Shown here: positions 9,476 through 28,550 of the stretch, one piece after another | How the letters are laid out: each line of letters opens with the position of its first letter | How positions within the stretch are numbered: position 1 is the stretch's first letter | The notes under the pieces: model-generated | Database searches by the model: none | What the model was told of the DNA's origin: nothing | Seen by the model: the letters and a program-made list of their open reading frames with translations, nothing else | Source of the DNA: Candidatus Versatilivorator sp. | GTDB taxonomy: Bacteria > Acidobacteriota > Terriglobia > Versatilivoradales > Versatilivoraceae | Assembly: GCA_965207735.1 (NCBI GenBank) | Contig: OZ242296.1 | Location: 800,001 to 864,000, forward strand | DNA length: 64,000 bases | Direction: 5' to 3' | Position numbers and translations under genes: made by a program

Positions 9476-9575
9476 CTCCTGAGTGAAACGCCCTCCGCGG
9501 GGATTCGCTTCCGGCGCCCCATTCCCAAATCGCCACCTCAAGGAAAATCCGCACGTGCCGAAGAGAAGGAGTCGC

Positions 9576-12035: not shown

Positions 12036-12082
12036 GAATGGAGGACTGCTTCCGGAGCACCCTTCGACCGCCCGACGCAGTG

Positions 12083-13093
12083 TCATGCCGTCGTTTCAGA
12101 GCCGACCCCAGGTTCTGGACTTTGTGGGCGAGGATTCGAGGAACCGAGTAGGCGATCGCACTCCTGCTGAATCAATTCGCAGTGCTCCAACTCCTCCTCG
12201 GCAAACTTCTGAAAAATGGCCTTGCCTCGGGTGTCGTTGAACTTTTCGGCGTAGCGTTTGAAGAAACGGTGGGCTCCCCGCTCCATGGACAGAGCTAGGT
12301 GTAGAGCTTCTTCCAGGCTCAACTGTTCCAGTTGCCTCTCTTGCAGCTCTTCGGGACTGGGAAACAACCGATTGAGCTCGTTGTAGTCGAAGTGCAGGAA
12401 GACGGGCGCCTTCAGAACCCGCTTGTTCCTCTTGACGAGGGCATCCCACTCACCCTCGAGTTCCCGCAGGTGTTTTTCTTCCTCGGCTGCCATTTCGAGG
12501 AAAGCGTTCCTTCCCCGCGCGTCCGTGGCTGCTTTGGCCAGTGACTGGTAGAAATTGACGCCGTTTTTCTCGGTCTGCAGGGCGATACGGAGGGCGTCGC
12601 GGGCGAAAACCAGGTCTGAGTCGAAATCTTCGTGCTTGGCCGGGCGATGTTTCTGGCAATCCTCACAGACGCCAAACACCTGGAAATGGTGTCGCACCGG
12701 CTGGAAGCGGTAGCGTGAGACCACCTGCTCCTGAAGTTGCTCCAATTCAGGGCTGAGGAACTCAATTGCCTTCTGGCACTCCACACAGATGATGTGGTGG
12801 TGGTGAGGGCGCTTGTAGAGCGGCTCAAATCGGCTGCGGCTGTCCCCCAGGTCGATTTCCCTTGCCAGACCCGCGTCGGTCAGGGCCTTCATGGTTCGCG
12901 AGACGGTGGCATACCCGATAGTCCTGTCCTTCTGCCGGACCTGGTGGTAGAGCTCCTCGGTGCTCAAGTGGCCTTCGGTCTTGAGGAAATTTTCAAGGAT
13001 TACCTGCCGCTGCCGGGTGATCTTGAGCTTTTTCTTCTTCAGATAGGCAGCAAAGATCGCCTTCTGTTCGACCAGCTCTTTGTTAGAGGCCAT
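12083..13093 (-). CDS. Fur-family regulator fused to a rubrerythrin/ferritin-like domain
   Basis: N-terminal TRQRQVIL..HLSTEELY..ATVSRT, HHHHIICVEC, CEDC; C-terminal EKNGVNFY...EEEKH and ERGAHRFF...EELEH. Confidence 0.85.
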   Translation of the reverse strand: MASNKELVEQKAIFAAYLKKKKLKITRQRQVILENFLKTEGHLSTEELYHQVRQKDRTIGYATVSRTMKALTDAGLAREIDLGDSRSRFEPLYKRPHHHHIICVECQKAIEFLSPELEQLQEQVVSRYRFQPVRHHFQVFGVCEDCQKHRPAKHEDFDSDLVFARDALRIALQTEKNGVNFYQSLAKAATDARGRNAFLEMAAEEEKHLRELEGEWDALVKRNKRVLKAPVFLHFDYNELNRLFPSPEELQERQLEQLSLEEALHLALSMERGAHRFFKRYAEKFNDTRGKAIFQKFAEEELEHCELIQQECDRLLGSSNPRPQSPEPGVGSETTA

Positions 13094-15394: not shown

Positions 15395-15550
15395 ATGAAT
15401 GTGGCCGCCTCGGAAACGTTCATATCAACCATTGTGGGCCGCATCGTGAGAGGCTTCCAGTCTTCGCGGGTCGTCCTATTTGGATCCCTTGCACGGGGCG
15501 TGGCAACCGAACAGAGGAATCCATGGCCAACCAGGTGCAAATCCGAATAG
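15395..15550 (+). pseudogene. truncated minimal nucleotidyltransferase (MNT antitoxin-like)
   Basis: GGAGG RBS, then MNVAASETFISTIVGRIVRGFQSSRVVLFGSLARG; the DxD motif that should follow is missing and the frame stops inside osmC. Confidence 0.6.
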
Positions 15551-15966
15551 ACCAGACGAGCCCGGCGGCCTCCACCACCCAGGTCCGAGGCCATCGGATT
15601 TCAGTGGACCGTCCTTTGGAAAAGGGGGGCGAGGACCGGGGACCCATGGGGGGCGAGCTGATCCTGGTCGGTCTGGGGGGATGCTTTACCAGCAACCTTC
15701 TGGCAGCCATCCGAGCCCGTCAGGCGCCGGTGAGCCGGGTATCCACGACAGTCACCGCCACGCTGGCTGAGAGCCCTTCCCGCTTTGCCGCTATTGATCT
15801 GGCCGTATCCGCCGACTGCAGCGATGCCGCGCTTCTCCAAAAGCTGGTCAGCATCGCCGAACGGGCCTGTATTGCGGCCAATACCCTGCGGGGCGGTGTG
15901 AGTCTGAAGGTTCGTGTCGCCGCAATGGAGCCAGCCGAAGAGGTGTCCTGCCCTAAGAACGCCTAA
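15523..15966 (+). CDS. OsmC family protein
   Basis: DRP...GGEDRGPMGGELILVGLGGC ... AERACIAANTL (two conserved Cys); GAGG RBS before ATG 15523. Confidence 0.85.
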   Translation: MANQVQIRIDQTSPAASTTQVRGHRISVDRPLEKGGEDRGPMGGELILVGLGGCFTSNLLAAIRARQAPVSRVSTTVTATLAESPSRFAAIDLAVSADCSDAALLQKLVSIAERACIAANTLRGGVSLKVRVAAMEPAEEVSCPKNA

Positions 15967-15973
15967 TCCCATT

Positions 15974-15998
15974 GTAGGAGTGCCCCTTGTGGGCACCC
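15974..15998 (+). repeat. GTAG-type REP-like palindrome
   Basis: GTAG followed by GAGTGCCC-CTTGT-GGGCACCC hairpin just after the osmC stop. Confidence 0.5.
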
Positions 15999-16185
15999 AA
16001 TGAGGATGGCTGTGCTTGGACCGTCATATCCGCGGCGGGCTTCCCTCAGGTCCTCTGAAGCAACGTCACGCCATGATCGCCGCGGCCGTCTCGCGGAGGC
16101 AGTTTTGCCTTGCGGCTAAGCCATAAATCCAATAAAATCCGAAGCTTCGGGGCAATAACCGATCCGTGACCGCCCGGACGACCCT

Positions 16186-17409
16186 ATGCCGGTGCTGTCG
16201 GAAGGGATGTTTCATCCACCCATGGCCGTTTATCTGGATTGCGCCGCCACCGCCCCGGTCGATCCCCGGGTGCAACGGGAGGTCATGACCTATCTGGGCG
16301 TTGAATTCGGCAATGCCGGCAGTCGGCACCACGGGTTCGGTTCCAGAGCTCGTAGCGCCGTGGAGAGGGCGCGTGTCCAAGTCGCGGCGGTGGTGGGCGC
16401 CACCCGGGGCGAAATTATCTTCACCAGCGGCGCTACCGAAAGCAACAACCTGGCCCTGCTGGGTTTGGCCGAGCACGGGGCCGGGACCGACAGGTTTCAC
16501 CTTGTCAGCACCAGGATTGAGCACAAGTCCGTATTGGAACCCCTGCGGGCCCTTTCCGGCCGCGGTTTTGAAGTCACCCTGGTGGCTCCGGAGCCCGGCG
16601 GCTGGGTGCGTCCAGGGGCTATCCGGGACGCACTCCGAGAAAATACCCTGCTGGTCTCGGTCATGCAGGTCAACAACGAGACCGGCGTCATTCAGCCCAT
16701 CCTGGAAATCGCCCGGCTGCTCGAGAACCATCCGGCTTACCTGCACGTGGATGCCGCCCAAGGCTTCGGGAAAGAGATCGCATCGCTACGCAACCGTCGC
16801 ATCGACTTGATCAGCATCAGCGGTCATAAGGTCTACGCCCCCAAGGGCATCGGCGCCCTGGTCACCCGCCGGCGGAACGGACAGCGGCCTCCTCTCACCC
16901 CTTTAATGCATGGGGGAGGCCAGGAACTGGGGTTACGTCCCGGGACATTGCCGGTTCCGCTCATCGCCGGACTTGGCAAGGCCTCCGAACTGGCTTTGGC
17001 GGAGCACCAGGAACGCAACACGGTCTGTCGAAGGTTCAAGGAAATTCTCCTGCGGGAATTGCGGATGCTGAAGCCTGTCTTCAACGGGGATCTCGACCGC
17101 ACGGTCCCTCAGATTGTCAACTTTTCCTTGCCGGGAATCAGCTCGGAGGAAGCCATCGAGGCCGTGAGCCAGGTAGCCGCCATCTCCAACGGATCGGCCT
17201 GTACTTCGACCTCCGATAGCTGCAGCCACGTGCTGAGCGCTCAGAAGCTGGACGAGGCCCGCATGGAGGGGGCGCTTCGCCTTTCCTGGTGCCACCTGAG
17301 CCGTCAGCCCGACTGGAACGCCTTCATCCAGGCAGTCGAGGGGATTGGAGAACCGGCTCTCCCCGAAAGCTCAACCGCGGTGGGGATTGGCCAGGCCGGC
17401 GCCGCCTGA
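16186..17409 (+). CDS. cysteine desulfurase (IscS/DndA-like group I)
   Basis: YLDCAATAP, FTSGATESNN, EHKSV, VNNETG, DAAQ, SGHK (PLP Lys), RPGT, NGSACTS (catalytic Cys); real start may be 16207 or 16222. Confidence 0.9.
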   Translation: MPVLSEGMFHPPMAVYLDCAATAPVDPRVQREVMTYLGVEFGNAGSRHHGFGSRARSAVERARVQVAAVVGATRGEIIFTSGATESNNLALLGLAEHGAGTDRFHLVSTRIEHKSVLEPLRALSGRGFEVTLVAPEPGGWVRPGAIRDALRENTLLVSVMQVNNETGVIQPILEIARLLENHPAYLHVDAAQGFGKEIASLRNRRIDLISISGHKVYAPKGIGALVTRRRNGQRPPLTPLMHGGGQELGLRPGTLPVPLIAGLGKASELALAEHQERNTVCRRFKEILLRELRMLKPVFNGDLDRTVPQIVNFSLPGISSEEAIEAVSQVAAISNGSACTSTSDSCSHVLSAQKLDEARMEGALRLSWCHLSRQPDWNAFIQAVEGIGEPALPESSTAVGIGQAGAA

Positions 17410-17429
17410 AAGCGGACGACACCATCCGA

Positions 17430-17906
17430 ATGGCACAAGACCGGCAGCAGCACATTCGGTACAAGCGATCCCGGTTTTCAACACGGCTGCCGCTGGACCG
17501 CCGCTATACGGCCTCGCACTTCTGGACTGTCGAGCAGCAAACCGGCCTTTGGCGGGTGGGAATGACCAAATTCGCCACACGGATGCTCGGTGATCTTGTA
17601 GAATTCGAATTCGATGCCAAGCCCGGCCAGCAGGTCAGTGTCGGACAGACCATCGGCTGGATCGAAGCCTTCAAGGCCCTGACCGACCTCTATTGCGTGG
17701 TCGACGGAGTATTCAGGAGTGTGAACCCCCTGATCGAAGAGGATATCAGTCTGGTCGACTCCGATCCCTACGGAAAGGGGTGGCTCTACAGCGCCAGCGG
17801 TACTCCTGAGTCCAAGAGCGTGGACGTGCACGGATACGTGGAGATTCTGGATCTCACCATCGACAAGATGAAAGAGCAGTCGGGAAACAGGGATAGCGAT
17901 GGATAA
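17430..17906 (+). CDS. glycine cleavage H-like (lipoyl-carrier fold) protein
   Basis: RYTASHFW, RVGMTKFA..LGDL, IEAFKA (lipoyl-Lys position), VNP, DPYGKGWLY. Confidence 0.85.
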   Translation: MAQDRQQHIRYKRSRFSTRLPLDRRYTASHFWTVEQQTGLWRVGMTKFATRMLGDLVEFEFDAKPGQQVSVGQTIGWIEAFKALTDLYCVVDGVFRSVNPLIEEDISLVDSDPYGKGWLYSASGTPESKSVDVHGYVEILDLTIDKMKEQSGNRDSDG

Positions 17907-19038
17907 GGCCCGCTACATCATGATCGGTGGGTTTCTGGGGGCCGGCAAGACGACAGCGGTGCTGCGACTGGCCAAGCTCTTGGAAGGCCGCGGGTCGCAA
18001 GTGGGACTGATCACCAACGACCAGAGCCACGGGTTGGTCGATACCGCCCTGCTCGGCTCCAGCGGGTTTCCCGTGGAGGAAATCACCGGCGGTTGCTTCT
18101 GCTGCAAGTTCGATTCCCTGGTGAGCGCCTCCGAACGGCTTTCCCGAGAGCGGCAGCCCGATGTCTTCCTGGCCGAGCCGGTGGGAAGCTGCACCGATTT
18201 GAAAGCCACCGTGGATTATCCCCTGCGCCGCATGTACGGGGAGAACTACTGGATTGCTCCCTTGAGCGTGATGGTGGATCCGGTTCGCGCCCTGCGCATT
18301 CTGGAGCTGGAGCCCGGGAGGTCTTTCTCACCCAAGGTGGTTTACGTCTACCGCAAGCAATTGGAGGAAGCCGACATCATCGTCATCAACAAGATCGATC
18401 TGCTCAGCCCGCAACGCCTGGAGCGGCTTCGCGGGGCCCTGCAGGAGTCCTTTTCCCCGCACCTTGTGTTGTCCGTTTCCGCTCGCCAGGACAAAGGCCT
18501 GGAGGAATGGTTCGAACAGATCACCCAGCCCCGGGCCTGCACACGGGGTGATCTGGCCGTGGACTACGACACCTACGCCGAGGGAGAGGCGCTTCTCGGC
18601 TGGCTAAACTGCAGCTTGCGGGTCGGGGCTGCGGCTCCCTTTGACGGTAACCTTTTTCTGCGGGACGCCATGGCAGCCATCCAGCGACGGATACGATCCC
18701 GGGAAATCGCCCACTTGAAGATGACCTTGACCCCTGACGAACAGGGCCAGGATATCGGGGTGGCCAATCTCACCGGTAGCGATGTCGCTCCTGACCAGTC
18801 CCATGTGTTGCAGGAACCTCTGAGGGCCGGGGAACTCATCGTCAATCTGAGGGCGGAGGCCGACCCGGACGCCTTGCGGACCCAGGTTCAGGAAGCCCTC
18901 GCGGCCCTCCGCCGGGATGGGGGCCTGGAATTCGAGATCGAGCATCTGGAATCGTTCCGTCCGGCCCGGCCCACCCCCACCCACCGGCTGCAGGCGTCGG
19001 AGACCGGGGTCGCGGCCTCACAGTCCGTTTCGGCTTGA
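17899..19038 (+). CDS. COG0523/CobW-type G3E metallochaperone GTPase
   Basis: GGFLGAGKTT, GGCFCC (CxCC), EPVG, NKID. Confidence 0.88.
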   Translation: MDKARYIMIGGFLGAGKTTAVLRLAKLLEGRGSQVGLITNDQSHGLVDTALLGSSGFPVEEITGGCFCCKFDSLVSASERLSRERQPDVFLAEPVGSCTDLKATVDYPLRRMYGENYWIAPLSVMVDPVRALRILELEPGRSFSPKVVYVYRKQLEEADIIVINKIDLLSPQRLERLRGALQESFSPHLVLSVSARQDKGLEEWFEQITQPRACTRGDLAVDYDTYAEGEALLGWLNCSLRVGAAAPFDGNLFLRDAMAAIQRRIRSREIAHLKMTLTPDEQGQDIGVANLTGSDVAPDQSHVLQEPLRAGELIVNLRAEADPDALRTQVQEALAALRRDGGLEFEIEHLESFRPARPTPTHRLQASETGVAASQSVSA

Positions 19039-19090
19039 ATATGGCGACAACCACCACGTCAGGATACCGGGCCACCCAATGCCGGGAGCG

Positions 19091-19447
19091 ATGATGGCGC
19101 CAGCAGCAAAAATCCTCTATTGTCGTTGCGCCTACGCCAAGGTAATCGCTCCGGAAGTCAAGGACGAGGTCCTTCAAAGGCTCACGCAATCCGGGGTGCC
19201 CTTTGAGGCCGTGCCCGATTTGTGCGAGATGTCTGCCCGGCGCGATCCGGCGCTCAAACGCTTGGCGGCGGAGGATGGAACCAAGATTGCAGCCTGCTAT
19301 CCTCGAGCCGTAAGGTGGCTTTTTTCAGCAGCCCAGTCCCCTCTGCCTAAAGACACGGTTGATATTGTGAACATGCGCGTTGACAGTGCCGAAACCGTCG
19401 CCCAGGGTCTCCTTCAAGAGCATTCGAAAGGAGAAGATTCATCGTGA
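19091..19447 (+). CDS. small Cys-rich protein resembling the HdrA N-terminal Fe-S domain
   Basis: YCRC...DLC...IAACYPR...VNMR follows the CxC...LC...AACSPR...NIR pattern; stop overlaps the next GTG. Confidence 0.65.
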   Translation: MMAPAAKILYCRCAYAKVIAPEVKDEVLQRLTQSGVPFEAVPDLCEMSARRDPALKRLAAEDGTKIAACYPRAVRWLFSAAQSPLPKDTVDIVNMRVDSAETVAQGLLQEHSKGEDSS

Positions 19448-20337
19448 TCGCCCCCAAGCTGCCTCTCCAGATCGGCCTCTACCAGAACGGCGGCCACCAC
19501 CTGCTCGGCGAGGACCGGCAGTACGACCTGACCCGCAGCCTTCTGGACAAGGGCTATGCGGTTTCGGTTATCCGTTCGGACAGTCAAATTGGACAAATCC
19601 GGGAAGGGGCCTGGCTCTTTCTGGGGTGCTTCGGCAAGGAAGAAGCGTTTCCGTCCGTGGGAAACGGGAACGGAGCCAAGCTCTACTTCCGGGACATCGA
19701 TGGTCTGGAAACCTCGCAGATACTGGAGGCCGTGGAGCAGGTGCGCGGTGAAACCGAGCTGCCCGATCCGGGCGGCTGGAAACCCTGGTTTCCGGTGATC
19801 GATTACAACCGCTGCACCAACTGCATGCAATGCCTGAGCTTCTGTCTGTTTGACGTCTACGGTGTACACGAGGACAAGATCCAGGTGCAGAACGAGAGCA
19901 ATTGCAAGACGGACTGCCCCGCCTGCTCCCGAGTCTGCCCCGAGGTGGCCATTCTCTTTCCCAAGTACAAGAGCGGTCCCATCAACGGAGACGTGGTGCG
20001 GCAGGAGGACATTCAGCGTGAGGCCATGAAGGTGGACATCTCGGCCCTGCTGGGCGGGGATCTATACGGGTCCCTGCGGCAGCGCCAGACGGAAGCTCGC
20101 CAGCGTTTCTCCACCGAGCGGGACGAGTCTCGAGCCCTGCTGGAGCGCAAGAAGTGCCTGCGCAAGCTCAAGAAGGATTTTGACATCCCGGACGAGGTTC
20201 TGATGAGCCTGCCTTCGGCCGGCGACATCCAGGAGCGGGCCGAACGGGCCAAGGCAAAGCTGGCTGCCCGCCAGGAGCGCTCCCAGACCGTCAGGGACAC
20301 CCGGCCGGCGCCCACCGAAGACGACTGGGGAATCTAG
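19444..20337 (+). CDS. 2x[4Fe-4S] ferredoxin-domain protein
   Basis: CTNCMQCLSFC and CKTDCPACSRVCP; charged helical C-terminal tail. Confidence 0.85.
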   Translation: MIAPKLPLQIGLYQNGGHHLLGEDRQYDLTRSLLDKGYAVSVIRSDSQIGQIREGAWLFLGCFGKEEAFPSVGNGNGAKLYFRDIDGLETSQILEAVEQVRGETELPDPGGWKPWFPVIDYNRCTNCMQCLSFCLFDVYGVHEDKIQVQNESNCKTDCPACSRVCPEVAILFPKYKSGPINGDVVRQEDIQREAMKVDISALLGGDLYGSLRQRQTEARQRFSTERDESRALLERKKCLRKLKKDFDIPDEVLMSLPSAGDIQERAERAKAKLAARQERSQTVRDTRPAPTEDDWGI

Positions 20338-20340
20338 CCG

Positions 20341-21546
20341 ATGCTCACAACTTTGCTCTCCTTTGGCTACCGCGTGGTTCGAACCACCGATGCCCGTCTG
20401 CTGTGGAAGATCGGCTACAACTTCGGGTACAAGGGCATCCGTTCCGTTCAGCGATTCAAGGCCCGGCTCAAGCAGGGACAGACCTTTCCCCCGTTTCTCT
20501 ATATCTCCATCACCAATAGCTGCAACCTGCGCTGCCAGGGATGCTGGGTGGACGTCGACAAGCCCCAGTCCCTGATCAGCTTCGAGGACATGAACCGCTT
20601 GATCGGGAATGCCAAGCAGCATGGGAACAGCTTTTTCGGGATCCTGGGGGGAGAGCCGTTCCTCCATCCCGACCTCATCGCCATCCTGAAGGCTCACCCC
20701 GACTGCTACTTTCAGATCTTCACCAACGGGCACGCCATCACCGACAAGGTGGCCGCCGAGCTCCGCAAGGCCGGCAACGCCACACCCCTGGTCAGCGTGG
20801 AAGGGACCGAAGCCGTCAGCGACGTGCGGCGCGGCCGCAAAGGAGTCCTGAATCGGACCCTGGCCGGCATCCAGGCCAGTCTTCGGCACCGTCTGATCAC
20901 CGGGGTCGCCACCAGTGTCTGCCAGAGCAACTTCGACGACCTGGTCCGGGAGTCCTGGATCGACAACCTCATCGATATGGGAGTGCACTACACCTGGTTC
21001 CACACCTATCGCGCCGTAGGGCCCGTAGCCAACCCCCAGCTGGCCCTGACCGCCGAGCAGGGGCTCCGACTGCGCCGGTTCGTGCTGGATATGCGCAACC
21101 GCAAGCCCATCGGGATCGTGGATGCCTACTACGACGACCGGGGGGAGGCGCTGTGCCCGGCGGCCACCGGGATCAGCCACCACATCAGTCCCTTTGGCGA
21201 CGTGGAGCCCTGCCCCGTGGTCCAGTTCGCCAACGAGTCCATCCACGACAACCAGGGGGACCTGTTCAAGACCATGACCGAGTCGCCCTTGCTGGAGGAC
21301 TTTCGGCGCACGGCCGCCGGGGCTACCCGGGGCTGCATCGTGCTGGAACGACCCGATCTCCTCAAGCAGGTGGTGGAGCGCAACAGCGCTCAAGACACCA
21401 CCCTGCGGCACACAGCCATGCCGGAACTGGAGCAGATGCAATCCAGGCCCAGCCAGTACAATCCGGGCAACGAGCTGCCGGAGGAGAACTGGGCCTACCG
21501 TTTCGCCAAGAAGCACTGGTTCTTCGGATTTGGAGCCTACACCTGA
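20341..21546 (+). CDS. radical SAM enzyme with C-terminal SPASM/twitch-like Cys
   Basis: CNLRCQGC, GGEPF, FTNG; LCPAA..ISPFGDVEPCP...GCI. Confidence 0.9.
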   Translation: MLTTLLSFGYRVVRTTDARLLWKIGYNFGYKGIRSVQRFKARLKQGQTFPPFLYISITNSCNLRCQGCWVDVDKPQSLISFEDMNRLIGNAKQHGNSFFGILGGEPFLHPDLIAILKAHPDCYFQIFTNGHAITDKVAAELRKAGNATPLVSVEGTEAVSDVRRGRKGVLNRTLAGIQASLRHRLITGVATSVCQSNFDDLVRESWIDNLIDMGVHYTWFHTYRAVGPVANPQLALTAEQGLRLRRFVLDMRNRKPIGIVDAYYDDRGEALCPAATGISHHISPFGDVEPCPVVQFANESIHDNQGDLFKTMTESPLLEDFRRTAAGATRGCIVLERPDLLKQVVERNSAQDTTLRHTAMPELEQMQSRPSQYNPGNELPEENWAYRFAKKHWFFGFGAYT

Positions 21547-21587
21547 AGAGGAGTCCCGCCGCGGGAATCCAGGAGGGAGTCGCCAGC

Positions 21588-23378
21588 ATGATCCGGAAGG
21601 TAGTGGACGATCTCAAGCAGGCGCCGGATTCCGGAAACGGAGTTCTGCTGACACTTCCGGCCAAGGTCCCCAAGCAAGCCTATCGCCCGGCTCAGTCCAA
21701 TATTCCCGACGACAAGCGGGTCCGGGTCTTTCTGAAGAAGGTCGTGGCCGATCATGTCCGCACGGTGGGCGCGGTGCCGCCGCTGACCATGGATGAGCTG
21801 CGGGACCATGCCACCGCCGTATTGACGAAGGCCGGGCTGGAAAGCAAGTACCGGGACTACGCCGCCATTCTGGTCGGCAACGAGTCCTGGAGGGATACCC
21901 TGGCGCAGATTCCCTTCAACCGCCGTCTCCTGCTGCTCCCCAAGTGCCTGCGGGTGGAAGAACGCTGTCCGGCCCCCTTCGACGAGTTCGGGCTGCTCTG
22001 CAAGGAGTGCGGGCTGTGCTCTATCCAGGACCTGTCGGTGGAGGCCGAGAGGCTGGGCTACGCCGTCCTGGTTGCGGAGGGTTCGGCTATCGTGCGGCAG
22101 ATGATCGAGACGGGCAAGATCGAAGCGGTGGTGGGAGTCAGTTGCATCAACGTGCTGGAGAAGTGCTTCCCCCATATGGAAGCGGCAGCCGTGCCGGGAA
22201 TGGCCATTCCGCTGCTTCAGGACGATTGCGTGAACACCACCGTGGACCTGGACTGGGTCTGGGACCTGATTCACCTGACGGCCGACGACAAGACCTATCG
22301 CCTCGACCTGGACGGGCTCAAGAGCGAGGTTCAGAGTTGGTTCCGCAGGGAGGCGTTGGCGGAGCTGATGGGCGCGCCCTCGGAGGAGACGGCTGTCATC
22401 GCCCAGGACTGGCTGGCCAAGGCCGGAAAGCGCTGGAGACCCTATCTGGCCACCTGCACCACCATGGCGCTGCAGAGCCACCGGCAGGAGGCCTCCCCCC
22501 AAGCCTCGGCAGACCTGAAGAAGCTGGCGGTGGCCATTGAATGCTTCCACAAGGCCTCCCTGATCCACGACGACATCGAGGACGGCGACCTGGAGCGCTA
22601 CGGCAGCCAAGCGCTGCACGCCGAGGTTGGAATGCCGGTAGCTCTCAACGTGGGAGACTATCTGCTGGGAGAGGGCTACCGCTTGATCTCCGAGCTTTCC
22701 ATCGATCCGGCCGTTCGGGTGGAGATGCTGCGGCTGGCCTCGGAAGGCCACCTGACCTTGAGTCGCGGTCAGGGGTTGGAACTCTGCTGGGCCAGGAGTC
22801 CCAAGCCCCTCTCCTCCCTGCAGGTGCTGGATATCTTCCGCAAGAAGACGGCGCCGGCCTTCGAAGTGGCGCTGCGTCTGGGAGCCTGCCTGGCAGGCGC
22901 CGACGAAGAAACCCACTCCGTCCTGCGCCAGTACAGCCAATCGCTGGGCATCGCCTATCAGATCCGCGACGATCTGGAGGACTACAACGGAAGCGGCGAT
23001 TCCAACGACCTGGAGGCCCTGCGGCCCTCCCTGATTCTGGCCATTGCGCACAAGCGCGCCCTGCAGGGCCGCGAAAAGGACCTCATTTCCTCCCTCTTTT
23101 GCTTGGAGCGTGGCTATTCCCAGGTCTCGGCTGAAGTGCAGCGCATCCTGGTGGAACGCGGGGTCACCGAGAAGGCCGAAGAACTTCTGGAGGCCTACAA
23201 GGAAGAGGCGGTTCGTTCCTTGCGCTTTCTCTCCAACCCGACGCTGAAGGGATTGCTGCGCCGGGTGGTGGGCAAGATCTTCGGCGAGCAGTTCATCGAG
23301 GGCTACTGCAGTGAGTTTGAGGCTCGAAATGCTGCAGGTCGCGCGCCTGGCCCCCAACCTGTTGCGCGAAGCCACTGA
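21588..23378 (+). CDS. DUF116-like Cys-rich domain fused to trans-polyprenyl diphosphate synthase
   Basis: N-terminal LLPKCLR..CPA...CKECGLC...GVSC; C-terminal GKRWRP, IHDDIED (FARM), KKT, QIRDDLED (SARM); AGGAGGGAG RBS before ATG 21588. Confidence 0.85.
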   Translation: MIRKVVDDLKQAPDSGNGVLLTLPAKVPKQAYRPAQSNIPDDKRVRVFLKKVVADHVRTVGAVPPLTMDELRDHATAVLTKAGLESKYRDYAAILVGNESWRDTLAQIPFNRRLLLLPKCLRVEERCPAPFDEFGLLCKECGLCSIQDLSVEAERLGYAVLVAEGSAIVRQMIETGKIEAVVGVSCINVLEKCFPHMEAAAVPGMAIPLLQDDCVNTTVDLDWVWDLIHLTADDKTYRLDLDGLKSEVQSWFRREALAELMGAPSEETAVIAQDWLAKAGKRWRPYLATCTTMALQSHRQEASPQASADLKKLAVAIECFHKASLIHDDIEDGDLERYGSQALHAEVGMPVALNVGDYLLGEGYRLISELSIDPAVRVEMLRLASEGHLTLSRGQGLELCWARSPKPLSSLQVLDIFRKKTAPAFEVALRLGACLAGADEETHSVLRQYSQSLGIAYQIRDDLEDYNGSGDSNDLEALRPSLILAIAHKRALQGREKDLISSLFCLERGYSQVSAEVQRILVERGVTEKAEELLEAYKEEAVRSLRFLSNPTLKGLLRRVVGKIFGEQFIEGYCSEFEARNAAGRAPGPQPVARSH

Positions 23379-24195
23379 GCGGGTCGACGACTTCCTGCGG
23401 AACCAGATCAATCCGGACGGAGGATTCCGGGATCGTGTCGGCCAAAGCGATCTCTACTACACCGTCTTCGGCCTTGAAGGTCTGATCGCCCTGCGACAAG
23501 AGCCGCCTTACTCGCGGGTGCGCCCCTTCCTGGAAGGATTCGGGGACGGCGATGGGTTGGACCTGGTCCATCTGGCCTGCCTGGCCCGCTGCTGGGCAGC
23601 TCTTCCTTCCGGCAGCCTCTCTCCCGAAACCTGCCGGTGCCTGGTCGAAAGGCTGGAATCCTTTCGAGCCGGGGACGGAGGATACGCACCCACCCCTGGT
23701 GCCCCCGCGGGCGCCGTTTACCACGGCTTTTTGGTCCTGGGAGCTTACCAGGACCTGGGGGTTCCCATCCCAGACCCTACGGGGTTGGCAACTTCGGTCC
23801 AGGCGCTTCAATTGGACAGCGGGGGCTTTTCCGGCCGCCCCGGCCTACCGGCCCCTTCCACCCCCAATACCGCGGCAGCCCTGACCCTTCTCCGGCAATT
23901 CGGCTCCCCTGCCCTCCCCGGAGGCTCCGACTGGCTCTTGAGCCAGGCCTGCCCCGACGGCGGCTTTCGTGCAGCGGAAGACACGCCCATTCCCGACCTG
24001 CTCTCGACAGCTACCGCCCTGCATGCCCTGGCCGGGCAACAGGTTTCCTTCCAACACCTCAAGGAACCAACGCTGGATTTTCTAGACACCCTCTGGACCA
24101 GCCGGGGAGCCTTCTACGGAAACTGGACCGACGAGGTGGCCGACTGCGAATACACCTACTACGCCTTGCTCGCCCTGGGCCACCTGAGCCTGTGA
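23311..24195 (+). CDS. prenyltransferase/squalene-oxidase repeat (alpha/alpha barrel) protein
   Basis: QINPDGGF, GDGGY, QLDSGGF, QACPDGGF repeats; DLYYT and DCEYTYY; GTG start overlapping the upstream gene. Confidence 0.8.
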   Translation: MSLRLEMLQVARLAPNLLREATERVDDFLRNQINPDGGFRDRVGQSDLYYTVFGLEGLIALRQEPPYSRVRPFLEGFGDGDGLDLVHLACLARCWAALPSGSLSPETCRCLVERLESFRAGDGGYAPTPGAPAGAVYHGFLVLGAYQDLGVPIPDPTGLATSVQALQLDSGGFSGRPGLPAPSTPNTAAALTLLRQFGSPALPGGSDWLLSQACPDGGFRAAEDTPIPDLLSTATALHALAGQQVSFQHLKEPTLDFLDTLWTSRGAFYGNWTDEVADCEYTYYALLALGHLSL

Positions 24196-24206
24196 GACTC
24201 GGTAGC

Positions 24207-24420
24207 CCCGGGAGCGCGGGCATCCCGCCCCCATCCTTATTCCTGCAAATAGTCTCCCGTCCAGGGTCACTCCCTCGCAAAGCGCACCAAACCCACCTTC
24301 ACGGGGTTCTCTTCCATAAGGCGGAAGGTAAGAAATTGCATTGTTTCCGCTTCGTCGAAGTGCGGGAGGTAGCCACGATCGTGCCAATTCCTCTGCGGGC
24401 GGGACGCCCGCGCTCCCGGG
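24207..24420. repeat. inverted REP pair flanking a RAYT remnant
   Basis: CCCGGGAGCGCGGGCATCCCGCCC (24207-24230) and its 23/24 reverse complement at 24397-24420. Confidence 0.8.
24245..24390 (-). pseudogene. internally deleted REP-associated tyrosine transposase (RAYT)
   Basis: WHDRGYLPHFD..TMQFLTFRL (RAYT N-terminus) joined directly to EENPVKVGLV...*PW (RAYT C-terminus); HUH core absent. Confidence 0.7.
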
Positions 24421-24537
24421 TGGGCCTTGTTGACGGACACCATTGCTTGCACCGCTAAACCAGTCCGAGAAATGATTGCAGTGTAGCCAATGCCCATTGA
24501 AGATAAAATCTCAGGAAATCTCAGGTTTTGGGCTAAC

Positions 24538-26619
24538 CCATCTTTAACACGGCTTCCAAGTATACGTTTATTATCAACAGGTTACAAAAGGCTCAACGCG
24601 CAAGTGGCACTACAAACGCGTTGAAACCGGAGATTTTGGAGGAATCAGACGATCATCTTGCGGATCCCTCCAGGAGAGGGATCGATGCCCAGGGCGTCGT
24701 AGATGGCCCTCTGATCGGGTTCGGCCCGTGTGGCCTTGCGGACGTGCAAGGTCCGCCCGTCCTGACGCCGGAAGGTGACCGTGACCCGCTGCTGTCCTTC
24801 CAGGATGCGCCGCAGCGTGGTCCAACTGGAGGCCTCGCCGCGCTGCTTGAGGCGTTTGCGGATGACCTGCACCAGTTGATAGGCGATGACCGTCAGAAAC
24901 AGGTGACCTTCCGAGCGCACCGGCTTGTGATGATAGATGGGCCGCAGGCCCAGCTCGGACTTCAGGGAGCGAAACACCGCTTCCACGTCGGTCAGAGTCG
25001 TGTAGGTACGCCAGAGACTTTCCTCGTCCCAGTCAGTCTGGTTGCTGCGCAGGCAGTAGACCCCCGGATGGGTGGCCATCGAGCCCTGGCGGGGACGGTG
25101 CTTCCATCTCAGCGCTGTCGCCTTGCGGCCGCTCTCGTCGGTGAGGACCTCGATGCTGTAGTGTTGCCCCACCCCGCGGCTCTGTTCCTTCAGCCGCCCG
25201 ATCCTCTCCCGGACCTTCTCGACGCCTTTGTGAGTCCGCGGCCGGGAAAGCCCCTCGGAGAGTCGGGTGAGCCCCTGCTCGAAGCGCCGGCTGAAGCGCT
25301 CCACGATGCCCTTCTCCTTCTCAGCCCGCTGCTGTGAGCGGCAGTAGAGACGCACTTCCTGCCCGTCGTCGGAGATCTCCTTGTGGAGCTGCAGCTCGGC
25401 CTTGGAAGCCGTCTCCACCGTCACGGCCGCCTCGGCATCGAACTGCCTCCGGCCCTGGCGGCTGGCCACCAGGTAGCGATACCCTTCCTCCCTCAACCAC
25501 TGGATCCGGTCCTCGGTCGCCACCCCCCGATCCATCACCACCAAGGCTCCCCGGGGCGCCTCCAGCGCCTCCAGCATCCCCTCCAGGGTGCGGGGCTCAT
25601 CCACCCTACCGGCAAAGACCTCCGAGCGGCGCACAAACCCCGCCCCGTCCAGCACCAACCCCAGCGTCAGCAGCCGACAGTCGCTGCGCTTGTCCTTCGA
25701 GTGGCCCCGCTCGGCCTTGGGCTGATGGCTGGCCGCCCCTTCGAAGAAGGTGTTGGTCAGATCGAACAGGGTGACGGTCGGCTCCAGATCGAACAACCCC
25801 ATGGCCCGGGTGAAGAGGTGACGCTCGATGGCCTCCCGATGCTTCATCAGCGCGTCCGAGGCCCGATACATCTGCATCAGACTCAGGCTCTCGAAGTCAA
25901 CCTCCAGCAACTCGCCCAAGCCGCTGCGCCGCCTGAGCCAGCCCCAGGTGGCCCTCTCCGAGCCCGGTCGGGCCAGACGGCCTACCATGGCCCCCAACGC
26001 CGCTGCCCGCATCGGTCCGTTCAGCCCTAACTCGGTCAGCAGATCCCCCAGCCCCAACTGCTCCAGCGCCCAGCAACCGACCTGCTCCACCCCCACGCTG
26101 CGCGGACGTGTCAAGGCCACCGAATCCACCTCGACCGTCTGCAGGTCCTCTGAGGCGGCCTCCCCGCCAACGCCGGTCACGTCGGCTTCGCCCTCAAGCA
26201 AGCGCTGGGCCATGCGTTGGGCTTCCTCCTCCAACGGGGTGGAAGCCACCGGCAAGAGAGGCAACTGACCGGTGAGGATCTGATCGAGACGGCGGCACAA
26301 CAAGGGCCAGTCCTCACGGGGGATCGAGAAGTGTCGACCGAGGTTGAGGAGGGTCTGCTGGCGGACCTTGCCACTGACGCGATGGGAGCGGACGAGGCGG
26401 TGGGTGAAGTAGGTCTGTCCGGAATGGAGGCTGCGGGTCTGGGTGCGTCGGATGAACATGGGAGGGACGCTACCAGAGGAGAGAGAGGGGGTCAAGCCCA
26501 TCCCATACGATTATGGCACTACATTCACCTCCTCAACCAAGAATCAACAACTTACGGGTGGTTTTAGGCTAAAATGGGGGTAAAATACCTCAAATCGGCC
26601 GTTTCTTTGTTAAAGATGG
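24538..26619 (-). mobile_element. IS1634-family insertion sequence
   Basis: TIR CCATCTTTAACA / TGTTAAAGATGG; direct repeat GCTAAC on both sides (boundary ambiguous by 1 bp). Confidence 0.88.
24645..26459 (-). CDS. IS1634-family transposase
   Basis: MFIRR...RQQTLLNLG, FDLTNTFFEG, RGHSKDKRSD, VMDRG, VEAVFRSLKSELGLRPIYH. Confidence 0.92.
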   Translation of the reverse strand: MFIRRTQTRSLHSGQTYFTHRLVRSHRVSGKVRQQTLLNLGRHFSIPREDWPLLCRRLDQILTGQLPLLPVASTPLEEEAQRMAQRLLEGEADVTGVGGEAASEDLQTVEVDSVALTRPRSVGVEQVGCWALEQLGLGDLLTELGLNGPMRAAALGAMVGRLARPGSERATWGWLRRRSGLGELLEVDFESLSLMQMYRASDALMKHREAIERHLFTRAMGLFDLEPTVTLFDLTNTFFEGAASHQPKAERGHSKDKRSDCRLLTLGLVLDGAGFVRRSEVFAGRVDEPRTLEGMLEALEAPRGALVVMDRGVATEDRIQWLREEGYRYLVASRQGRRQFDAEAAVTVETASKAELQLHKEISDDGQEVRLYCRSQQRAEKEKGIVERFSRRFEQGLTRLSEGLSRPRTHKGVEKVRERIGRLKEQSRGVGQHYSIEVLTDESGRKATALRWKHRPRQGSMATHPGVYCLRSNQTDWDEESLWRTYTTLTDVEAVFRSLKSELGLRPIYHHKPVRSEGHLFLTVIAYQLVQVIRKRLKQRGEASSWTTLRRILEGQQRVTVTFRRQDGRTLHVRKATRAEPDQRAIYDALGIDPSPGGIRKMIV

Positions 26620-26633
26620 GCTAACCATATCCG

Positions 26634-28550
26634 ATGAATTCAAATACTGTGCTCGATCGCGAAAAACTCAGGCACACCTTGGCTCGCGCCACCCGCAAGC
26701 TGCTGGATTCCCGGGTCCCGGCAGGCCACTGGGAAGGTGAGTTGTCGAGCAGCGCCCTCTCCACCGCCACCGCGGTGCTGGCTTTGGCCCTGCTGCTGCG
26801 GGAGGGAGAAGGGCGTCTGGATCCGAGTCTGGCGGCCACCTGTCGGAATTTGACGGCCAAGGGAAGGGACTGGCTGGTTGAGAACCAAAATCCGGACGGT
26901 GGTTTCGGCGATACAGTCGGGAGCCCCGGCAACCTGAGCACCACGGCGCTGGGCTGGGGGGCCTTGACAGCCGCGGACGGTGGTTGTGACCAGACTCTGA
27001 ACGCTACTCGGGCCTGGCTGACGGCCAGGACCGGAGGTCTGGACGCCGGGGCGCTGGCCACGGCCATTACCGCCCGCTATGGGGATGATCGCACCTTCTC
27101 GGCACCCATCCTGACCGCCTGCGCCCTGGCCGGAGCCTTCGGACCGGATAAAGGCGTCTGGAGCCGCGTCCCTCAGCTCCCTTTCGAGCTGGCCGTCTGT
27201 CCCCCGCAGTGGTTCAAGTGGCTGCGCCTGCCGGTGGTCAGCTATGCCCTGCCGGCCCTGATCGCCATCGGCCAGGTCCGCCACTGCTTCCATGCCACTC
27301 GAAATCCCTTGCTGCGCCTGATCCGCTCCCTGGCACGACGAAGGAGCCTGGAGATCCTGCAGACCATTCAGCCGGCAAGCGGCGGTTACCTGGAAGCGGT
27401 TCCTCTCACCAGCTTCGTGATCATGAGCCTGGCGGCCAGCGGGCAGGCATGCCACCCGGTCGTCTTGCGGGGTGTGGATTTTTTGGCGGCCACCGCTCGG
27501 GCCGACGGATCCTGGCCCATCGATACCAACCTGGCAACCTGGGTGACCACCCAGTCCCTCGCTTCCCTGGCGGCCGGAGGGGATCTCGAATCCCACCTGG
27601 ATGCGGAAGAGCGCCGAGACCTCCGGCGCTGGCTGCTGGATCAGCAATATCACAGCCTGCACCCCTATACCCATGCCGAGCCTGGCGGCTGGGCCTGGAC
27701 CGATCTGCCGGGCGGGGTTCCGGATGCCGACGATACCGCCGGCGCCCTGCTGGCCTTGAGCTACCTGGGACCCGGCGATGTCGAGTCGATTCAAGCCGCT
27801 TCCGCCGGCGTGGAGTGGCTGCTCGATCTGCAGAACTCTGACGGAGGCATTCCAACCTTCTGTCGTGGCTGGGGCCGGCTGCCCTTCGACCGCAGCAGCC
27901 CCGATCTCACGGCCCATGCGCTGCTGGCCTGGTCAAGCTGGCAACAGGCTGTTCCGCTCCGGCTTCGATCCCGCCTGCAGTCGGCCGGGAGGCGCGGTGT
28001 GAACTATCTGTCCGTTTCCCAACGAGAGGACGGCGCCTGGGTGCCGCTCTGGTTCGGTAACCAGGCGGCCCGAGGCGAAGAGAACCCGACCTATGGCACG
28101 GCCCGGGTAGTGCTGGCTCTCAACCGTCTGAGCGACGACGGAGACTTTCCGGTTGAAGGAATGAGGAGTCGAGGCATCGACTGGTTGCTGGCTGCGCAGA
28201 ACGCCGACGGTGGCTGGGGCGGATCTGCAGGAGTGGCATCCACCATCGAAGAGACGGCTCTGGCGGTACAGACCCTGGCGGATGCCCCGGATGTGGCTTC
28301 GCATTCCCTGGACCTGACGAGGAGCCCCGTGGAGGTCGCCATCGCCAAGGGGGTATCCTTGCTGGTCGCTGCCACCCGAGGGGGGCGGGATTTCAAGCCG
28401 TCGCCCATCGGACTCTACTTTTCCAAGCTGTGGTACTTCGAGCGCCAGTATCCGGTTATCTTCTCCGTGGCCGCCCTGGGTCGGGCAGCCTCCACGGATT
28501 ATCGATGCACCCTTTCCAATACCTCGGCCGGCGGAGGCGGAAACAGGTAG
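26634..28550 (+). CDS. squalene-hopene-cyclase-like class II terpene cyclase
   Basis: GHWEGEL, QW repeats (QNPDGGFG, QNSDGG, QREDGAW, QNADGGWG), catalytic PDADDTA (DxDD). Confidence 0.88.
   Translation: MNSNTVLDREKLRHTLARATRKLLDSRVPAGHWEGELSSSALSTATAVLALALLLREGEGRLDPSLAATCRNLTAKGRDWLVENQNPDGGFGDTVGSPGNLSTTALGWGALTAADGGCDQTLNATRAWLTARTGGLDAGALATAITARYGDDRTFSAPILTACALAGAFGPDKGVWSRVPQLPFELAVCPPQWFKWLRLPVVSYALPALIAIGQVRHCFHATRNPLLRLIRSLARRRSLEILQTIQPASGGYLEAVPLTSFVIMSLAASGQACHPVVLRGVDFLAATARADGSWPIDTNLATWVTTQSLASLAAGGDLESHLDAEERRDLRRWLLDQQYHSLHPYTHAEPGGWAWTDLPGGVPDADDTAGALLALSYLGPGDVESIQAASAGVEWLLDLQNSDGGIPTFCRGWGRLPFDRSSPDLTAHALLAWSSWQQAVPLRLRSRLQSAGRRGVNYLSVSQREDGAWVPLWFGNQAARGEENPTYGTARVVLALNRLSDDGDFPVEGMRSRGIDWLLAAQNADGGWGGSAGVASTIEETALAVQTLADAPDVASHSLDLTRSPVEVAIAKGVSLLVAATRGGRDFKPSPIGLYFSKLWYFERQYPVIFSVAALGRAASTDYRCTLSNTSAGGGGNR

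What the first reader, a model, noticed from the sequence alone, without database searches (positions are those of the whole stretch)
15523..28550. Candidate undescribed biosynthetic system: sulfur/Fe-S relay and radical SAM coupled to polyprenyl synthase and class II terpene cyclase
Seen: ten co-oriented genes, several overlapping or abutting (17899/17906, 19444/19447, 20337/20341, 23311/23378): OsmC, cysteine desulfurase, GcvH-like carrier, COG0523 GTPase, HdrA-N-like protein, 2x[4Fe-4S] ferredoxin, radical SAM, DUF116-polyprenyl synthase, prenyltransferase-fold protein and, past an inserted IS, a DxDD cyclase. Established: hopanoid loci need HpnCDE or squalene synthase, glycine cleavage needs GcvT/P, Dnd needs DndB-E and sHdr needs sHdrABC; none of these is in the window. 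Inference: a dedicated pathway builds a head-to-tail polyprenyl chain, transfers and cyclises it, and modifies it by radical/Fe-S chemistry, possibly inserting desulfurase-derived sulfur via the GcvH-like carrier. The product could be a sulfur-containing or radical-modified cyclic terpenoid lipid or cofactor. I know of no characterised pathway with this gene set.
Basis: partly seen in the sequence, partly recalled or inferred. Interest (0 to 1): 0.9.

Follow-up and report, generated by a model that had tools for sequence, protein, structure and literature searches.

The report
Orphan radical-SAM cyclic terpenoid pathway
This is a real gene cluster, conserved across several bacterial phyla, whose five-part core (prenyl-chain synthase, ring-forming enzyme, its partner, a ferredoxin and one radical enzyme) likely makes a still unidentified cyclic terpenoid lipid, while the sulfur and lipoyl genes are found in oxygen-respiring carriers and likely act as helpers rather than putting sulfur into the product.

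Summary
The genes and overlaps are real. Eight of them keep one order in 47 of 80 related loci from five phyla; OsmC and the IS do not belong. In 151 Planctomycetota genomes, the DUF116-synthase, toroid protein and cyclase occur in the same 33, the ferredoxin in 32 of them, and none in the other 118. Each of the 33 has exactly one radical SAM enzyme: 26 a sister of the Mss-type lipid C–C-coupling family, 7 an unrelated B12-type enzyme. The GcvH-like gene is missing from exactly the 10 genomes that lack haem-copper oxidase. A desulfurase is adjacent in only 10 of 33. Best reading: a squalene-independent route to a cyclised, radically C–C-linked polyprenoid lipid, with an aerobe-specific Fe–S/redox helper module. 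Sulfur insertion into the product is less likely. The cyclase is the published 'SHC-like' clade of unknown substrate. No product is known.

The parts
19091..19447 (+). Core: small four-cysteine protein (CxC...C...C), likely an Fe-S domain; fused to the ferredoxin in some relatives
   Evidence: No Pfam or NCBIfam family; four Cys invariant in 19 of 19 aligned; present in 46 of 46 wide loci; fused to the ferredoxin in L094, L109, L110, L111; HdrA likeness not confirmed. Start codon uncertain (19079 to 19094)
19444..20337 (+). Core: 2x[4Fe-4S] ferredoxin, likely electron donor to the radical SAM enzyme
   Evidence: Fer4 hits; eight Cys invariant; in 32 of 33 carrier genomes and 0 of 118 others
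20341..21546 (+). Core: radical SAM enzyme with a three-cysteine auxiliary site (C272, C291, C332), sister of the Mss-type family; replaced by a B12-type enzyme in some genomes
   Evidence: 29-32% identical to the Mss-type proteins in L114-L127; 26 + 7 mutually exclusive distribution
21588..23378 (+). Core: DUF116 (seven invariant Cys) fused to a trans-isoprenyl diphosphate synthase with DDIED and DDLED motifs, A/S at the chain-length positions, and RYG in place of the usual RRG
   Evidence: AlphaFold model, mean pLDDT 81; in 33 of 151 genomes
23311..24195 (+). Core: single alpha/alpha-toroid protein with conserved acidic residues (D47, D229, D278, E280), no DxDD and no Zn Cys/His ligands; likely partner of the cyclase
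   Evidence: the same 33 genomes and 0 of 118 others; natural in-frame fusion with the cyclase, P0267
26634..28550 (+). Core: two-domain class II terpene cyclase of the 'SHC-like' type, intact D364-x-D366-D367
   Evidence: (94 bits against the SHC cut-off of 431); the same 33 genomes and 0 of 118 others
17430..17906 (+). Helper: dedicated GcvH paralogue with an invariant lipoyl-site lysine; found only in carriers that have haem-copper oxidase
   Evidence: the ordinary GcvH lies elsewhere, beside GcvP
17899..19038 (+). Helper: COG0523/CobW GTPase with a C-terminal domain, likely a metal or cluster chaperone
   Evidence: in all 23 oxidase-positive carriers, 2 of 10 oxidase-negative carriers and 4 of 118 non-carriers
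16222..17409 (+). Helper (lineage-restricted): cysteine desulfurase, DndA-like clade here, IscS-like clade in most other loci
   Evidence: within the locus in 36 of 46 wide near loci but adjacent in only 10 of 33 sampled carriers
24531..26625 (-). Not part of the system: IS1634 element inserted between the toroid and cyclase genes; both genes are intact
15523..15966 (+). Not part of the conserved system: OsmC-like neighbour, seen only in close relatives of this genome
   Evidence: 4 of 80 loci

Best explanation
A five-part core that co-occurs across genomes likely makes a cyclised, radically C-C-linked polyprenoid lipid without squalene, and the GcvH-like, CobW and desulfurase genes likely keep its iron-sulfur chemistry working in oxygen-respiring hosts. 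Shown: gene content, conserved catalytic motifs, co-occurrence, the radical SAM swap and the oxidase link. Inferred steps: (1) the DUF116-synthase builds an all-trans head-to-tail prenyl diphosphate of C20 or longer; (2) the toroid protein, bound to the cyclase, removes or transfers the diphosphate; (3) the DxDD cyclase protonates the terminal alkene and forms several rings; (4) the radical SAM enzyme, reduced by the ferredoxin pair, abstracts hydrogen from unactivated C-H and forms a C-C bond, joining two chains as Mss does or closing a further ring; (5) in aerobes, the desulfurase, the GTPase and the lipoylated carrier rebuild or re-reduce the clusters. The order of steps 3 and 4 and the role of the DUF116 cluster are open.
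For: Synthase, toroid protein and cyclase occur in the same 33 of 151 genomes and in none of the other 118, also where the genes are unlinked; ferredoxin 32 of 33. One radical SAM in each carrier, of two unrelated kinds, 26 + 7 with no overlap. The commoner kind keeps CNxxCxGC, GGEP, the block III residues and VEPC as described for Mss (PMC13159169 supplement) and is about 30% identical to proteins that match all six blocks. The other kind has an archaeal B12-binding radical SAM cluster among its three listed neighbours (cosine 0.99); archaeal B12 enzymes cyclise, methylate or desaturate isoprenoid chains. No squalene/phytoene synthase in 16 of 50 carrier genomes tested, including G059, a single-chromosome assembly; no true SHC in 5 of 5 of these. 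DxDD is invariant in 40 of 40 cyclases. A toroid-cyclase fusion exists, and the clade's dimer surface shows a published rate shift. GcvH-like presence matches haem-copper oxidase presence in 36 of 36 genomes; the oxidase-negative carriers are not one clade on the synthase tree (3 changes, p-AU 2e-6); Mss worked only anaerobically in E. coli.
Against: No product, activity or transcript is shown. The Mss link rests on the paper's description of motifs, not on alignment with the characterised enzymes; the cassette enzyme keeps only part of blocks V and VI. A B12-type enzyme could methylate rather than cross-link, so the two kinds may give different products. 34 of 50 carriers, and this genome, do have squalene/phytoene synthases. 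The oxidase link rests on about three independent events and on MAGs; G195 counts as GcvH-positive only through two partial hits at contig ends (110 and 103 bits). Lipoyl proteins are commoner in aerobes anyway, although 5 of the 10 oxidase-negative carriers keep an ordinary GcvH. Several profiles (A7-A12) included sequences from the sampled genomes, so those positives are partly built in. The invariant RYG may mean that the synthase uses an acceptor other than IPP.
Confidence: 0.5

Rival explanations
1. One reading: desulfurase sulfur travels via the lipoylated GcvH-like carrier and the auxiliary cluster, and the radical SAM enzyme inserts it into the terpenoid to give a sulfur-containing lipid or cofactor.
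For: Two separate desulfurase clades sit in the cassette (11 and 32 rows), with no scaffold gene among the conserved neighbours. The lipoyl-site lysine is invariant in 33 of 33 and 17 of 17 aligned. The auxiliary site has only three invariant Cys, which leaves a site open, as in C-S bond-forming enzymes (recalled).
Against: The carrier is absent from 10 of 33 genomes that keep the whole core. The desulfurase is adjacent in 10 of 33, and four single-chromosome carrier assemblies (G125, G145, G162, G209) have one distant copy only. The B12-type replacement has one invariant Cys outside the radical SAM motif. The toroid protein lacks the Zn Cys/His ligands of S-prenyltransferases.
Confidence: 0.15
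2. Same core, but the radical step is a decoration of the cyclised product (adenosyl addition as in HpnH, methylation or desaturation), not a chain-to-chain cross-link.
For: Weak HpnH match (41.6 bits, cut-off 225). B12-type enzymes include lipid methylases and a desaturase.
Against: Adenosyl addition or methylation would be hard to swap between two unrelated families; hydrogen abstraction with loss of 2H is what both families share in lipid chemistry (inference). The nearest sister family matches Mss motifs.
Confidence: 0.17
3. The synthase or the toroid protein prenylates a non-IPP acceptor (an aromatic compound, a glycerol backbone or the GcvH-like protein), and the cyclase acts on that meroterpenoid or tethered chain.
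For: Invariant R-to-Y change at a usual IPP-binding arginine (44 of 44; RRG in the genome's two ordinary synthases). The best PDB hit of the synthase domain is titled 'prenyltransferase' (9v4g). The toroid profile is closest to Rab GGTase beta (E 1.7e-16). The sister clade includes the meroterpenoid cyclase Lon15.
Against: The other usual IPP ligands are kept (K281 in 40 of 44; R284 and H321 in 44 of 44). No conserved gene for an acceptor lies nearby. GcvH-like is dispensable in 10 of 33 carriers.
Confidence: 0.13
4. A divergent triterpene cyclase that uses squalene made elsewhere in the genome; the neighbours are incidental.
For: This genome has three squalene-synthase-like genes and no other SHC.
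Against: 16 of 50 carriers lack PF00494. Co-occurrence with the DUF116-synthase is exact (33 of 33, 0 of 118). The SHC model score is far below its cut-off.
Confidence: 0.05

Closest known systems
'SHC-like' / unknown-function clade of class II cyclases (Santana-Molina 2020, PMC7306690; McShea 2025, PMC12414744 = PMC12324236)
   Same: Divergent SHC homologue with intact catalytic residues, in Planctomycetota, Verrucomicrobiota and Acidobacteriota, with a polyprenyl synthase nearby; both papers leave the substrate unknown.
   Different: The passages I read name no radical SAM, ferredoxin, toroid partner, GcvH or DUF116 (0 text hits for DUF116, radical SAM and glycine cleavage in the 2020 supplement). 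Figure S10 there is an image I could not see and may show some of these neighbours. I built no tree with their reference sequences.
Epoxy-polyprenyl cyclase clusters of actinomycetes (Lon15, AtoE, Bra4, PlaT2)
   Same: Sister clade of the SHC-like group; they cyclise head-to-tail polyprenyl chains.
   Different: They take epoxidised substrates. Here no epoxidase is among the conserved neighbours, DxDD is intact, and 10 carriers lack haem-copper oxidase.
Membrane-spanning lipid synthase Mss (PMC13159169), with Gms and Tes
   Same: Radical SAM enzymes that join lipid tails by C-C bonds; shared CNxxCxGC, GGEP and VEPC motifs.
   Different: The cassette enzyme is shorter (401 aa), about 30% identical to Mss-type proteins, lacks parts of blocks V and VI, occurs in aerobes and is tied to terpenoid genes. 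Gms has two full auxiliary clusters; this enzyme has three auxiliary Cys.
Hopanoid (hpn) clusters: HpnCDE or Sqs, SHC, HpnH
   Same: Class II cyclase plus a radical SAM enzyme.
   Different: No squalene synthesis genes in the cassette and none in 16 of 50 carriers; SHC and HpnH models score far below cut-off.
DUF116-polyprenyl synthetase fusion, Psta_0175 of Pirellula staleyi (Makarova 2015, PMC5898192)
   Same: The same domain fusion; DUF116 was proposed to be a flavodoxin-like electron-transfer domain. The models here show an alternating strand/helix domain at moderate confidence.
   Different: Mentioned there in one sentence, with no pathway context.
Lipoate-binding protein systems (glycine cleavage; sHdr-LbpA with LipS1/S2, recalled)
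   Same: GcvH-fold carrier with a conserved lysine beside Fe-S and radical SAM genes.
   Different: No GcvT/P, no lipoate ligase and no flavoprotein among the conserved neighbours; the carrier is dispensable in oxidase-negative carriers.

Membership tests
Squalene-hopene cyclase (TIGR01507) | Score above the curated cut-off of 431 bits | tested here: not met
   94.3 bits
Squalene-hopene cyclase (TIGR01507) | DxDD general acid and two toroid domains | tested here: met
   D364/D366/D367 in 40 of 40; both Pfam domains
Hopanoid pathway | Squalene supply (HpnCD or Sqs) in the genome | tested here: not met
   Present in this genome but not found in 16 of 50 carriers
'SHC-like' unknown-function clade | Intact catalytic residues, 550-700 aa, PVC or Acidobacteriota host, polyprenyl synthase nearby | tested here: met
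   638 aa
'SHC-like' unknown-function clade | Placement in the published clade on a tree with its reference sequences | not tested
   No reference sequences were fetched
Epoxy-polyprenyl cyclase clusters | A linked epoxidase (recalled as a feature of these clusters) | tested here: not met
   None among the conserved neighbour families in 80 near and 20 further loci
Mss | Blocks I-III (CNxxCxGC; GGEP with L, F, N; N, S, R and glycines) | tested here: met
Mss | Blocks IV-VI in full (W then P, Q, R; D next to F, Y, H, N, VEPC; three P with C) | tested here: not met
   W, Q, R, D, H, VEPC, F, the last C and one P are kept; the F beside D, the Y, the N and two P are not
Mss | E <= 1e-50 and >= 30% identity to the T. 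ethanolicus or T. maritima enzyme | not testable with these tools
Gms | Full SPASM domain with two auxiliary clusters, length over 420 aa | tested here: not met
   401 aa and three auxiliary Cys
GDGT ring synthase (Grs) family, for the B12-type replacement | Sequence similarity to GrsA/B | tested here: inconclusive
   The likeness is recalled; a motif search in the PMC11214058 supplements found nothing; best NCBIfam hit TIGR04013 at 67-77 bits, cut-off 251; archaeal B12 cluster as Atlas neighbour
Protein prenyltransferase beta subunit | Zn ligands Asp, Cys and His (recalled) | tested here: not met
   D229 is kept, but the positions I map by eye to the Cys and His are L231 and Y281; C279 is in only 24 of 45
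trans-Isoprenyl diphosphate synthase | Both Asp-rich motifs, KT, and the N-terminal K/R and H | tested here: met
trans-Isoprenyl diphosphate synthase | RR after the first Asp-rich motif | tested here: not met
   RY in 44 of 44 and in three distant copies read by eye
Dnd phosphorothioation | DndA above cut-off with dndB-E linked | tested here: not met
   466 < 480 bits; no dnd family among the other window proteins scanned
Glycine cleavage system | GcvH linked to GcvT/P and above the GcvH cut-off | tested here: not met
   72-82 bits against cut-offs of 116-117; the ordinary pair lies elsewhere
HdrA N-terminal domain | Profile match to solved HdrA | tested here: not met
   No HdrA chain at E <= 5; a fold comparison was not available

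The most novel reading that the evidence does not exclude
An oxygen-independent, squalene-free route to a membrane-spanning cyclic terpenoid: a head-to-tail polyprenyl chain is cyclised by a cyclase-toroid heterodimer and dimerised or cross-linked by an Mss-like radical enzyme. About a fifth of the sampled Planctomycetota and many Acidobacteriota would make it, and it could be a source of orphan regular-polyprenoid fossils such as cheilanthanes. A lipoyl protein would serve as an oxygen-protection device for a radical SAM pathway.
Probability: 0.2. Interest if true: 0.95.

Novelty: new variant of a known kind. Interest (0 to 1): 0.78.

Why it matters
Two papers name the substrate of this cyclase clade as an open question that bears on how triterpenoid cyclases evolved and on fossil molecules with no known source; cheilanthane biosynthesis is listed as uncharacterised. 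The co-occurrence data give a minimal gene set to express. They also suggest why expressing the cyclase alone may fail: it likely needs its own substrate, a partner subunit and anoxic radical chemistry. The swap between two unrelated radical SAM families points to what the radical step must do. The match between the GcvH-like gene and respiratory oxidase suggests a general way for aerobes to run oxygen-sensitive lipid chemistry.

Tried and rejected
Literature searches for the gene set found no paper: (five terms; four terms) gave 0 papers; one search gave 3 and one distinct work; two searches gave nothing that ties this cluster to a fossil. Subscription papers are mostly not in the library. 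Polycyclic polyprenoid sulfides of sediments are recalled only; no call supports a link. ESM Atlas gave no usable hit for the DUF116 part, and PDB sequence profiles gave nothing real for DUF116 or the small Cys protein. Complex prediction for cyclase plus toroid protein was not available, so binding is untested. Fold searches of both models were not available, and the toroid protein was not modelled. The C-terminal Cys574 of the synthase is invariant in 44 near copies but absent from three distant ones read by eye, lies in the overlap with the next gene's start, and is disordered in the model: rejected as a general cluster ligand. I first took the second-tier radical SAM hits for Gms beside tes; no shared tes-like neighbour stood out in the 14 loci fetched of 15 genomes, and their motifs fit Mss instead. 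No RNA holder was listed for the operon; this says nothing about expression. OsmC, Fur, the TonB receptor and LipA (just outside the window) were rejected as members because they are not conserved neighbours beyond close relatives (LipA lies outside the flanks that were compared).
Full report
Observation. The ten ORFs, their strand and the quoted overlaps are in the sequence. Family scans give OsmC, an aminotransferase class V cysteine desulfurase (best model DndA, 466 bits, cut-off 480), GCV_H, CobW, no family for the small Cys protein, Fer4, Radical_SAM, DUF116 plus polyprenyl_synt, Prenyltrans, an IS1634 transposase, and both SQHop cyclase domains. The genome is one contig of 5.26 Mb, 100% complete. 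Its closest named relatives are titled Candidatus Versatilivorator or Terriglobia (Acidobacteriota). Of the nine cassette genes, the GTPase, small protein, ferredoxin, toroid protein and cyclase have no other tblastn match in the genome. The ordinary GcvH lies beside GcvP elsewhere. The IS is one of 12 near-identical copies and is absent from a 95%-identical relative.

Conservation. The synthase was found in 13 of 13 genomes of the same genus and 1 of 27 other relatives. A scan of 35 of 64 parts of the GTDB collection confirmed 585 relatives, about 1100 estimated in all; the best 80 loci come from Acidobacteriota, Planctomycetota, Hydrogenedentota, Verrucomicrobiota, Armatimonadota and a few others. 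Of these 80 loci, many on short contigs, 48 hold all eight genes from GcvH-like to cyclase, and 47 keep the window's order. In the 46 loci with wide flanks the counts are: small Cys protein 46, ferredoxin 46, toroid 44, cyclase 43, GcvH-like 43, CobW 43, this radical SAM 41, desulfurase 36 (29 within 1 kb of a cassette gene), OsmC 4. Clustering of all ORFs showed no further neighbour family shared broadly across phyla. The linked desulfurases fall into two clades, DndA-like (11 rows, support 100) and IscS-like (32 rows, support 84), each crossing phyla; one further long-branch row (L080) stands apart (quick tree).

Core versus helpers. One sample of 151 genomes from the phylum of G044 (Planctomycetota by the title of L015; at least 90% completeness requested) was searched seven times. 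The DUF116 domain of the fusion is in 33. The cyclase and the toroid protein are in the same 33 and in none of the other 118, also where they lie on other contigs or far apart. The ferredoxin is in 32 of the 33 and 0 of 118; the miss is G101, whose contig ends inside the cassette. The window's type of radical SAM scores above 560 bits in 26 carriers, and a different, B12-binding-type enzyme occurs in the other 7, with no overlap. The same replacement sits between ferredoxin and synthase in L056, L066 and L090. The cassette-type GcvH scores above 170 bits in 22 carriers and in no non-carrier (ordinary GcvH reaches about 100); G195 has two partial hits at contig ends and is counted as a 23rd. 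The 10 carriers without it are exactly the 10 without haem-copper oxidase subunit I, and G070, G074 and G090, which have the B12-type enzyme with GcvH, have the oxidase: 36 of 36 agree. The window's genome has the oxidase too. The cassette-type CobW is in all 23 oxidase-positive carriers, 2 of 10 negative ones and 4 of 118 non-carriers. A desulfurase lies beside a cassette gene in 10 of 33, all in the subfamily nearest the window (read against the positions). On a synthase tree of 23 rows (7 of the 10 oxidase-negative carriers), the oxidase-negative rows need 3 changes and are rejected as one clade (p-AU 2e-6), so the pattern rests on a few independent events, not on 36. Caveats: these are mostly MAGs, kin are not independent, and profiles A7-A12 included sequences from 20 of the 33 carriers.

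Enzyme anatomy. Synthase: both Asp-rich motifs, KT, R284 and H321 are invariant in 44 aligned copies. A323/S324 before the first motif fit a product of C20 or longer (established rule, recalled). The usual RRG reads RYG in 44 of 44, while the genome's two ordinary synthases read RRG. DUF116 has seven invariant Cys. AlphaFold gives a helical synthase domain at high confidence and a strand/helix DUF116 domain at moderate confidence (pLDDT 81 whole, 69 domain alone), in line with the flavodoxin-like fold proposed in PMC5898192 (passages). Cyclase: DxDD is invariant in 40 of 40; it aligns with SHC at E 1e-18 but scores 94 bits against a cut-off of 431. Toroid protein: best profile match Rab GGTase beta (E 1.7e-16); conserved D47, D229, D278, E280, R42 and several Tyr; no DxDD and no Zn Cys/His; 494 clusters at 50% identity score E <= 1e-30. 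P0267 is a natural 898-aa fusion of toroid and cyclase with four cluster members. Radical SAM: three invariant Cys beyond the CxxxCxxC motif. Its next-best family in the sample (206-249 bits, 15 non-carrier genomes, ORFs of 443-503 aa) matches all six conserved blocks described for Mss in the supplement of PMC13159169 (passages). The window enzyme is 29-32% identical to these proteins and keeps blocks I-III, most of IV and parts of V-VI. That makes it a sister of Mss-type enzymes, not an Mss. For the B12-type enzyme, the Atlas lists an archaeal B12-binding cluster among its top three; a likeness to GDGT ring synthases is recalled and unconfirmed.

Substrate. No squalene/phytoene synthase was found in 16 of the 50 carrier genomes tested (50 of the 80 loci), among them the single-chromosome assembly G059. 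Five of these 16 have no true SHC either. The window's genome does have three squalene-synthase-like genes, two of them near a P450-like gene, IspH and transporters, and no other SHC, so squalene is not excluded as a substrate here. It cannot be the general one.

Mechanism. I favour a squalene-independent route to a cyclised polyprenoid lipid in which a radical step forms a C-C bond (0.5 for the full account; about 0.9 that the core is a dedicated non-hopanoid terpenoid pathway). The reason for C-C formation is that the slot is always filled, by either of two unrelated families, and hydrogen abstraction from inert lipid chains is what their characterised relatives share: Mss and Gms join tails (PMC13459092 sections 2.2 and 2.3; PMC11186832 passages), while archaeal B12 enzymes cyclise, methylate or desaturate isoprenoid chains (PMC11214058 passages; bioRxiv 2025.10.20.683597 abstract and part of one section). 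Mss worked only under anoxic conditions (PMC13159169 passages and part of a section), which offers a reason why aerobic carriers add a lipoyl protein, a metal chaperone and often a desulfurase. All chemical steps are inferred. Sulfur insertion (0.15), decoration instead of cross-linking (0.17), prenylation of another acceptor (0.13) and squalene use (0.05) remain.

What is known. PMC7306690 (passages and supplement passages) defines 'SHC-like' cyclases of Planctomycetes and Verrucomicrobia with intact catalytic residues and a neighbouring polyprenyl synthase, and suggests a non-squalene precursor; its figure S10 could not be seen and may show more neighbours. PMC12414744/PMC12324236 (passages) places the clade as sister to epoxy-polyprenyl cyclases, calls its function undemonstrated and reports a rate shift at its dimer surface, which fits a new partner such as the toroid protein (inference). 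Searches found no paper on the whole gene set. Earlier notes of this scan describe the same operon in other genomes and gave me the lead to the 2020 paper; a word search for the Mss and aerobe points found no note, but I saw only excerpts.

Unpublished genome. G070 (locus L056) may not be published from without its depositors' permission. It supplies one of ten examples of the B12-type replacement, one of the 36 rows of the oxidase comparison, one of the 16 genomes without squalene synthase, one desulfurase row, and rows of alignments A2, A4-A7 and A10. No conclusion rests on it alone.

Verdict. Real, widespread and uncharacterised; partly anticipated in print and already seen by this scan. 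The sharper result is a five-part obligatory core with an exchangeable radical enzyme and an aerobe-linked helper module. Interest 0.78; new variant of a known kind (synthase plus class II cyclase cluster), with a 0.2 chance of a new class of membrane lipid.

Noticed in passing
window 9483-13093: A FecA-like TonB-dependent receptor and a Fur-rubrerythrin fusion lie upstream of the cassette in this genome and in 5 loci of close relatives only: iron uptake next to an Fe-S-rich operon.
   Followed up: partly
window 24196-26633; L012, L013, L024, L053: The spacer between toroid and cyclase genes looks like an insertion hot spot in this genus: IS1634 here, 2.3-2.8 kb spacers in three relatives, and the cyclase more than 10 kb away or missing in L013. 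The IS may uncouple cyclase expression.
   Followed up: partly
G000:C1:2043000-2055000 (L091) and C1:3323600 (L092): Three squalene-synthase-like genes, two near a P450-like gene, IspH and RND/MMPL-like transporters (read by eye from ORFs), with no SHC or OSC in the genome: a second orphan terpenoid locus.
   Followed up: no
L114-L127: Proteins that match the described Mss blocks in 15 of 151 sampled genomes, none of them a cassette carrier; in 4 of 14 fetched loci they neighbour B12-binding radical SAM genes, one near the ladderane-associated model TIGR04072 (302 bits, cut-off 360).
   Followed up: partly
P0267: Natural three-toroid protein: the toroid partner fused in frame to the N-terminus of the SHC-like cyclase.
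   Followed up: partly
window 21588-23378, residue 338: Invariant Tyr in place of the second Arg of the RR motif in every synthase of this family examined; unexplained.
   Followed up: partly
G000:C1:799278-800132: The genome's lipoyl synthase LipA lies just outside the window, about 16 kb upstream of the cassette.
   Followed up: no
window 13515-14690 and 38750-40072: Two further transposases (DDE with DUF772) in the window; the genome is rich in IS elements.
   Followed up: no
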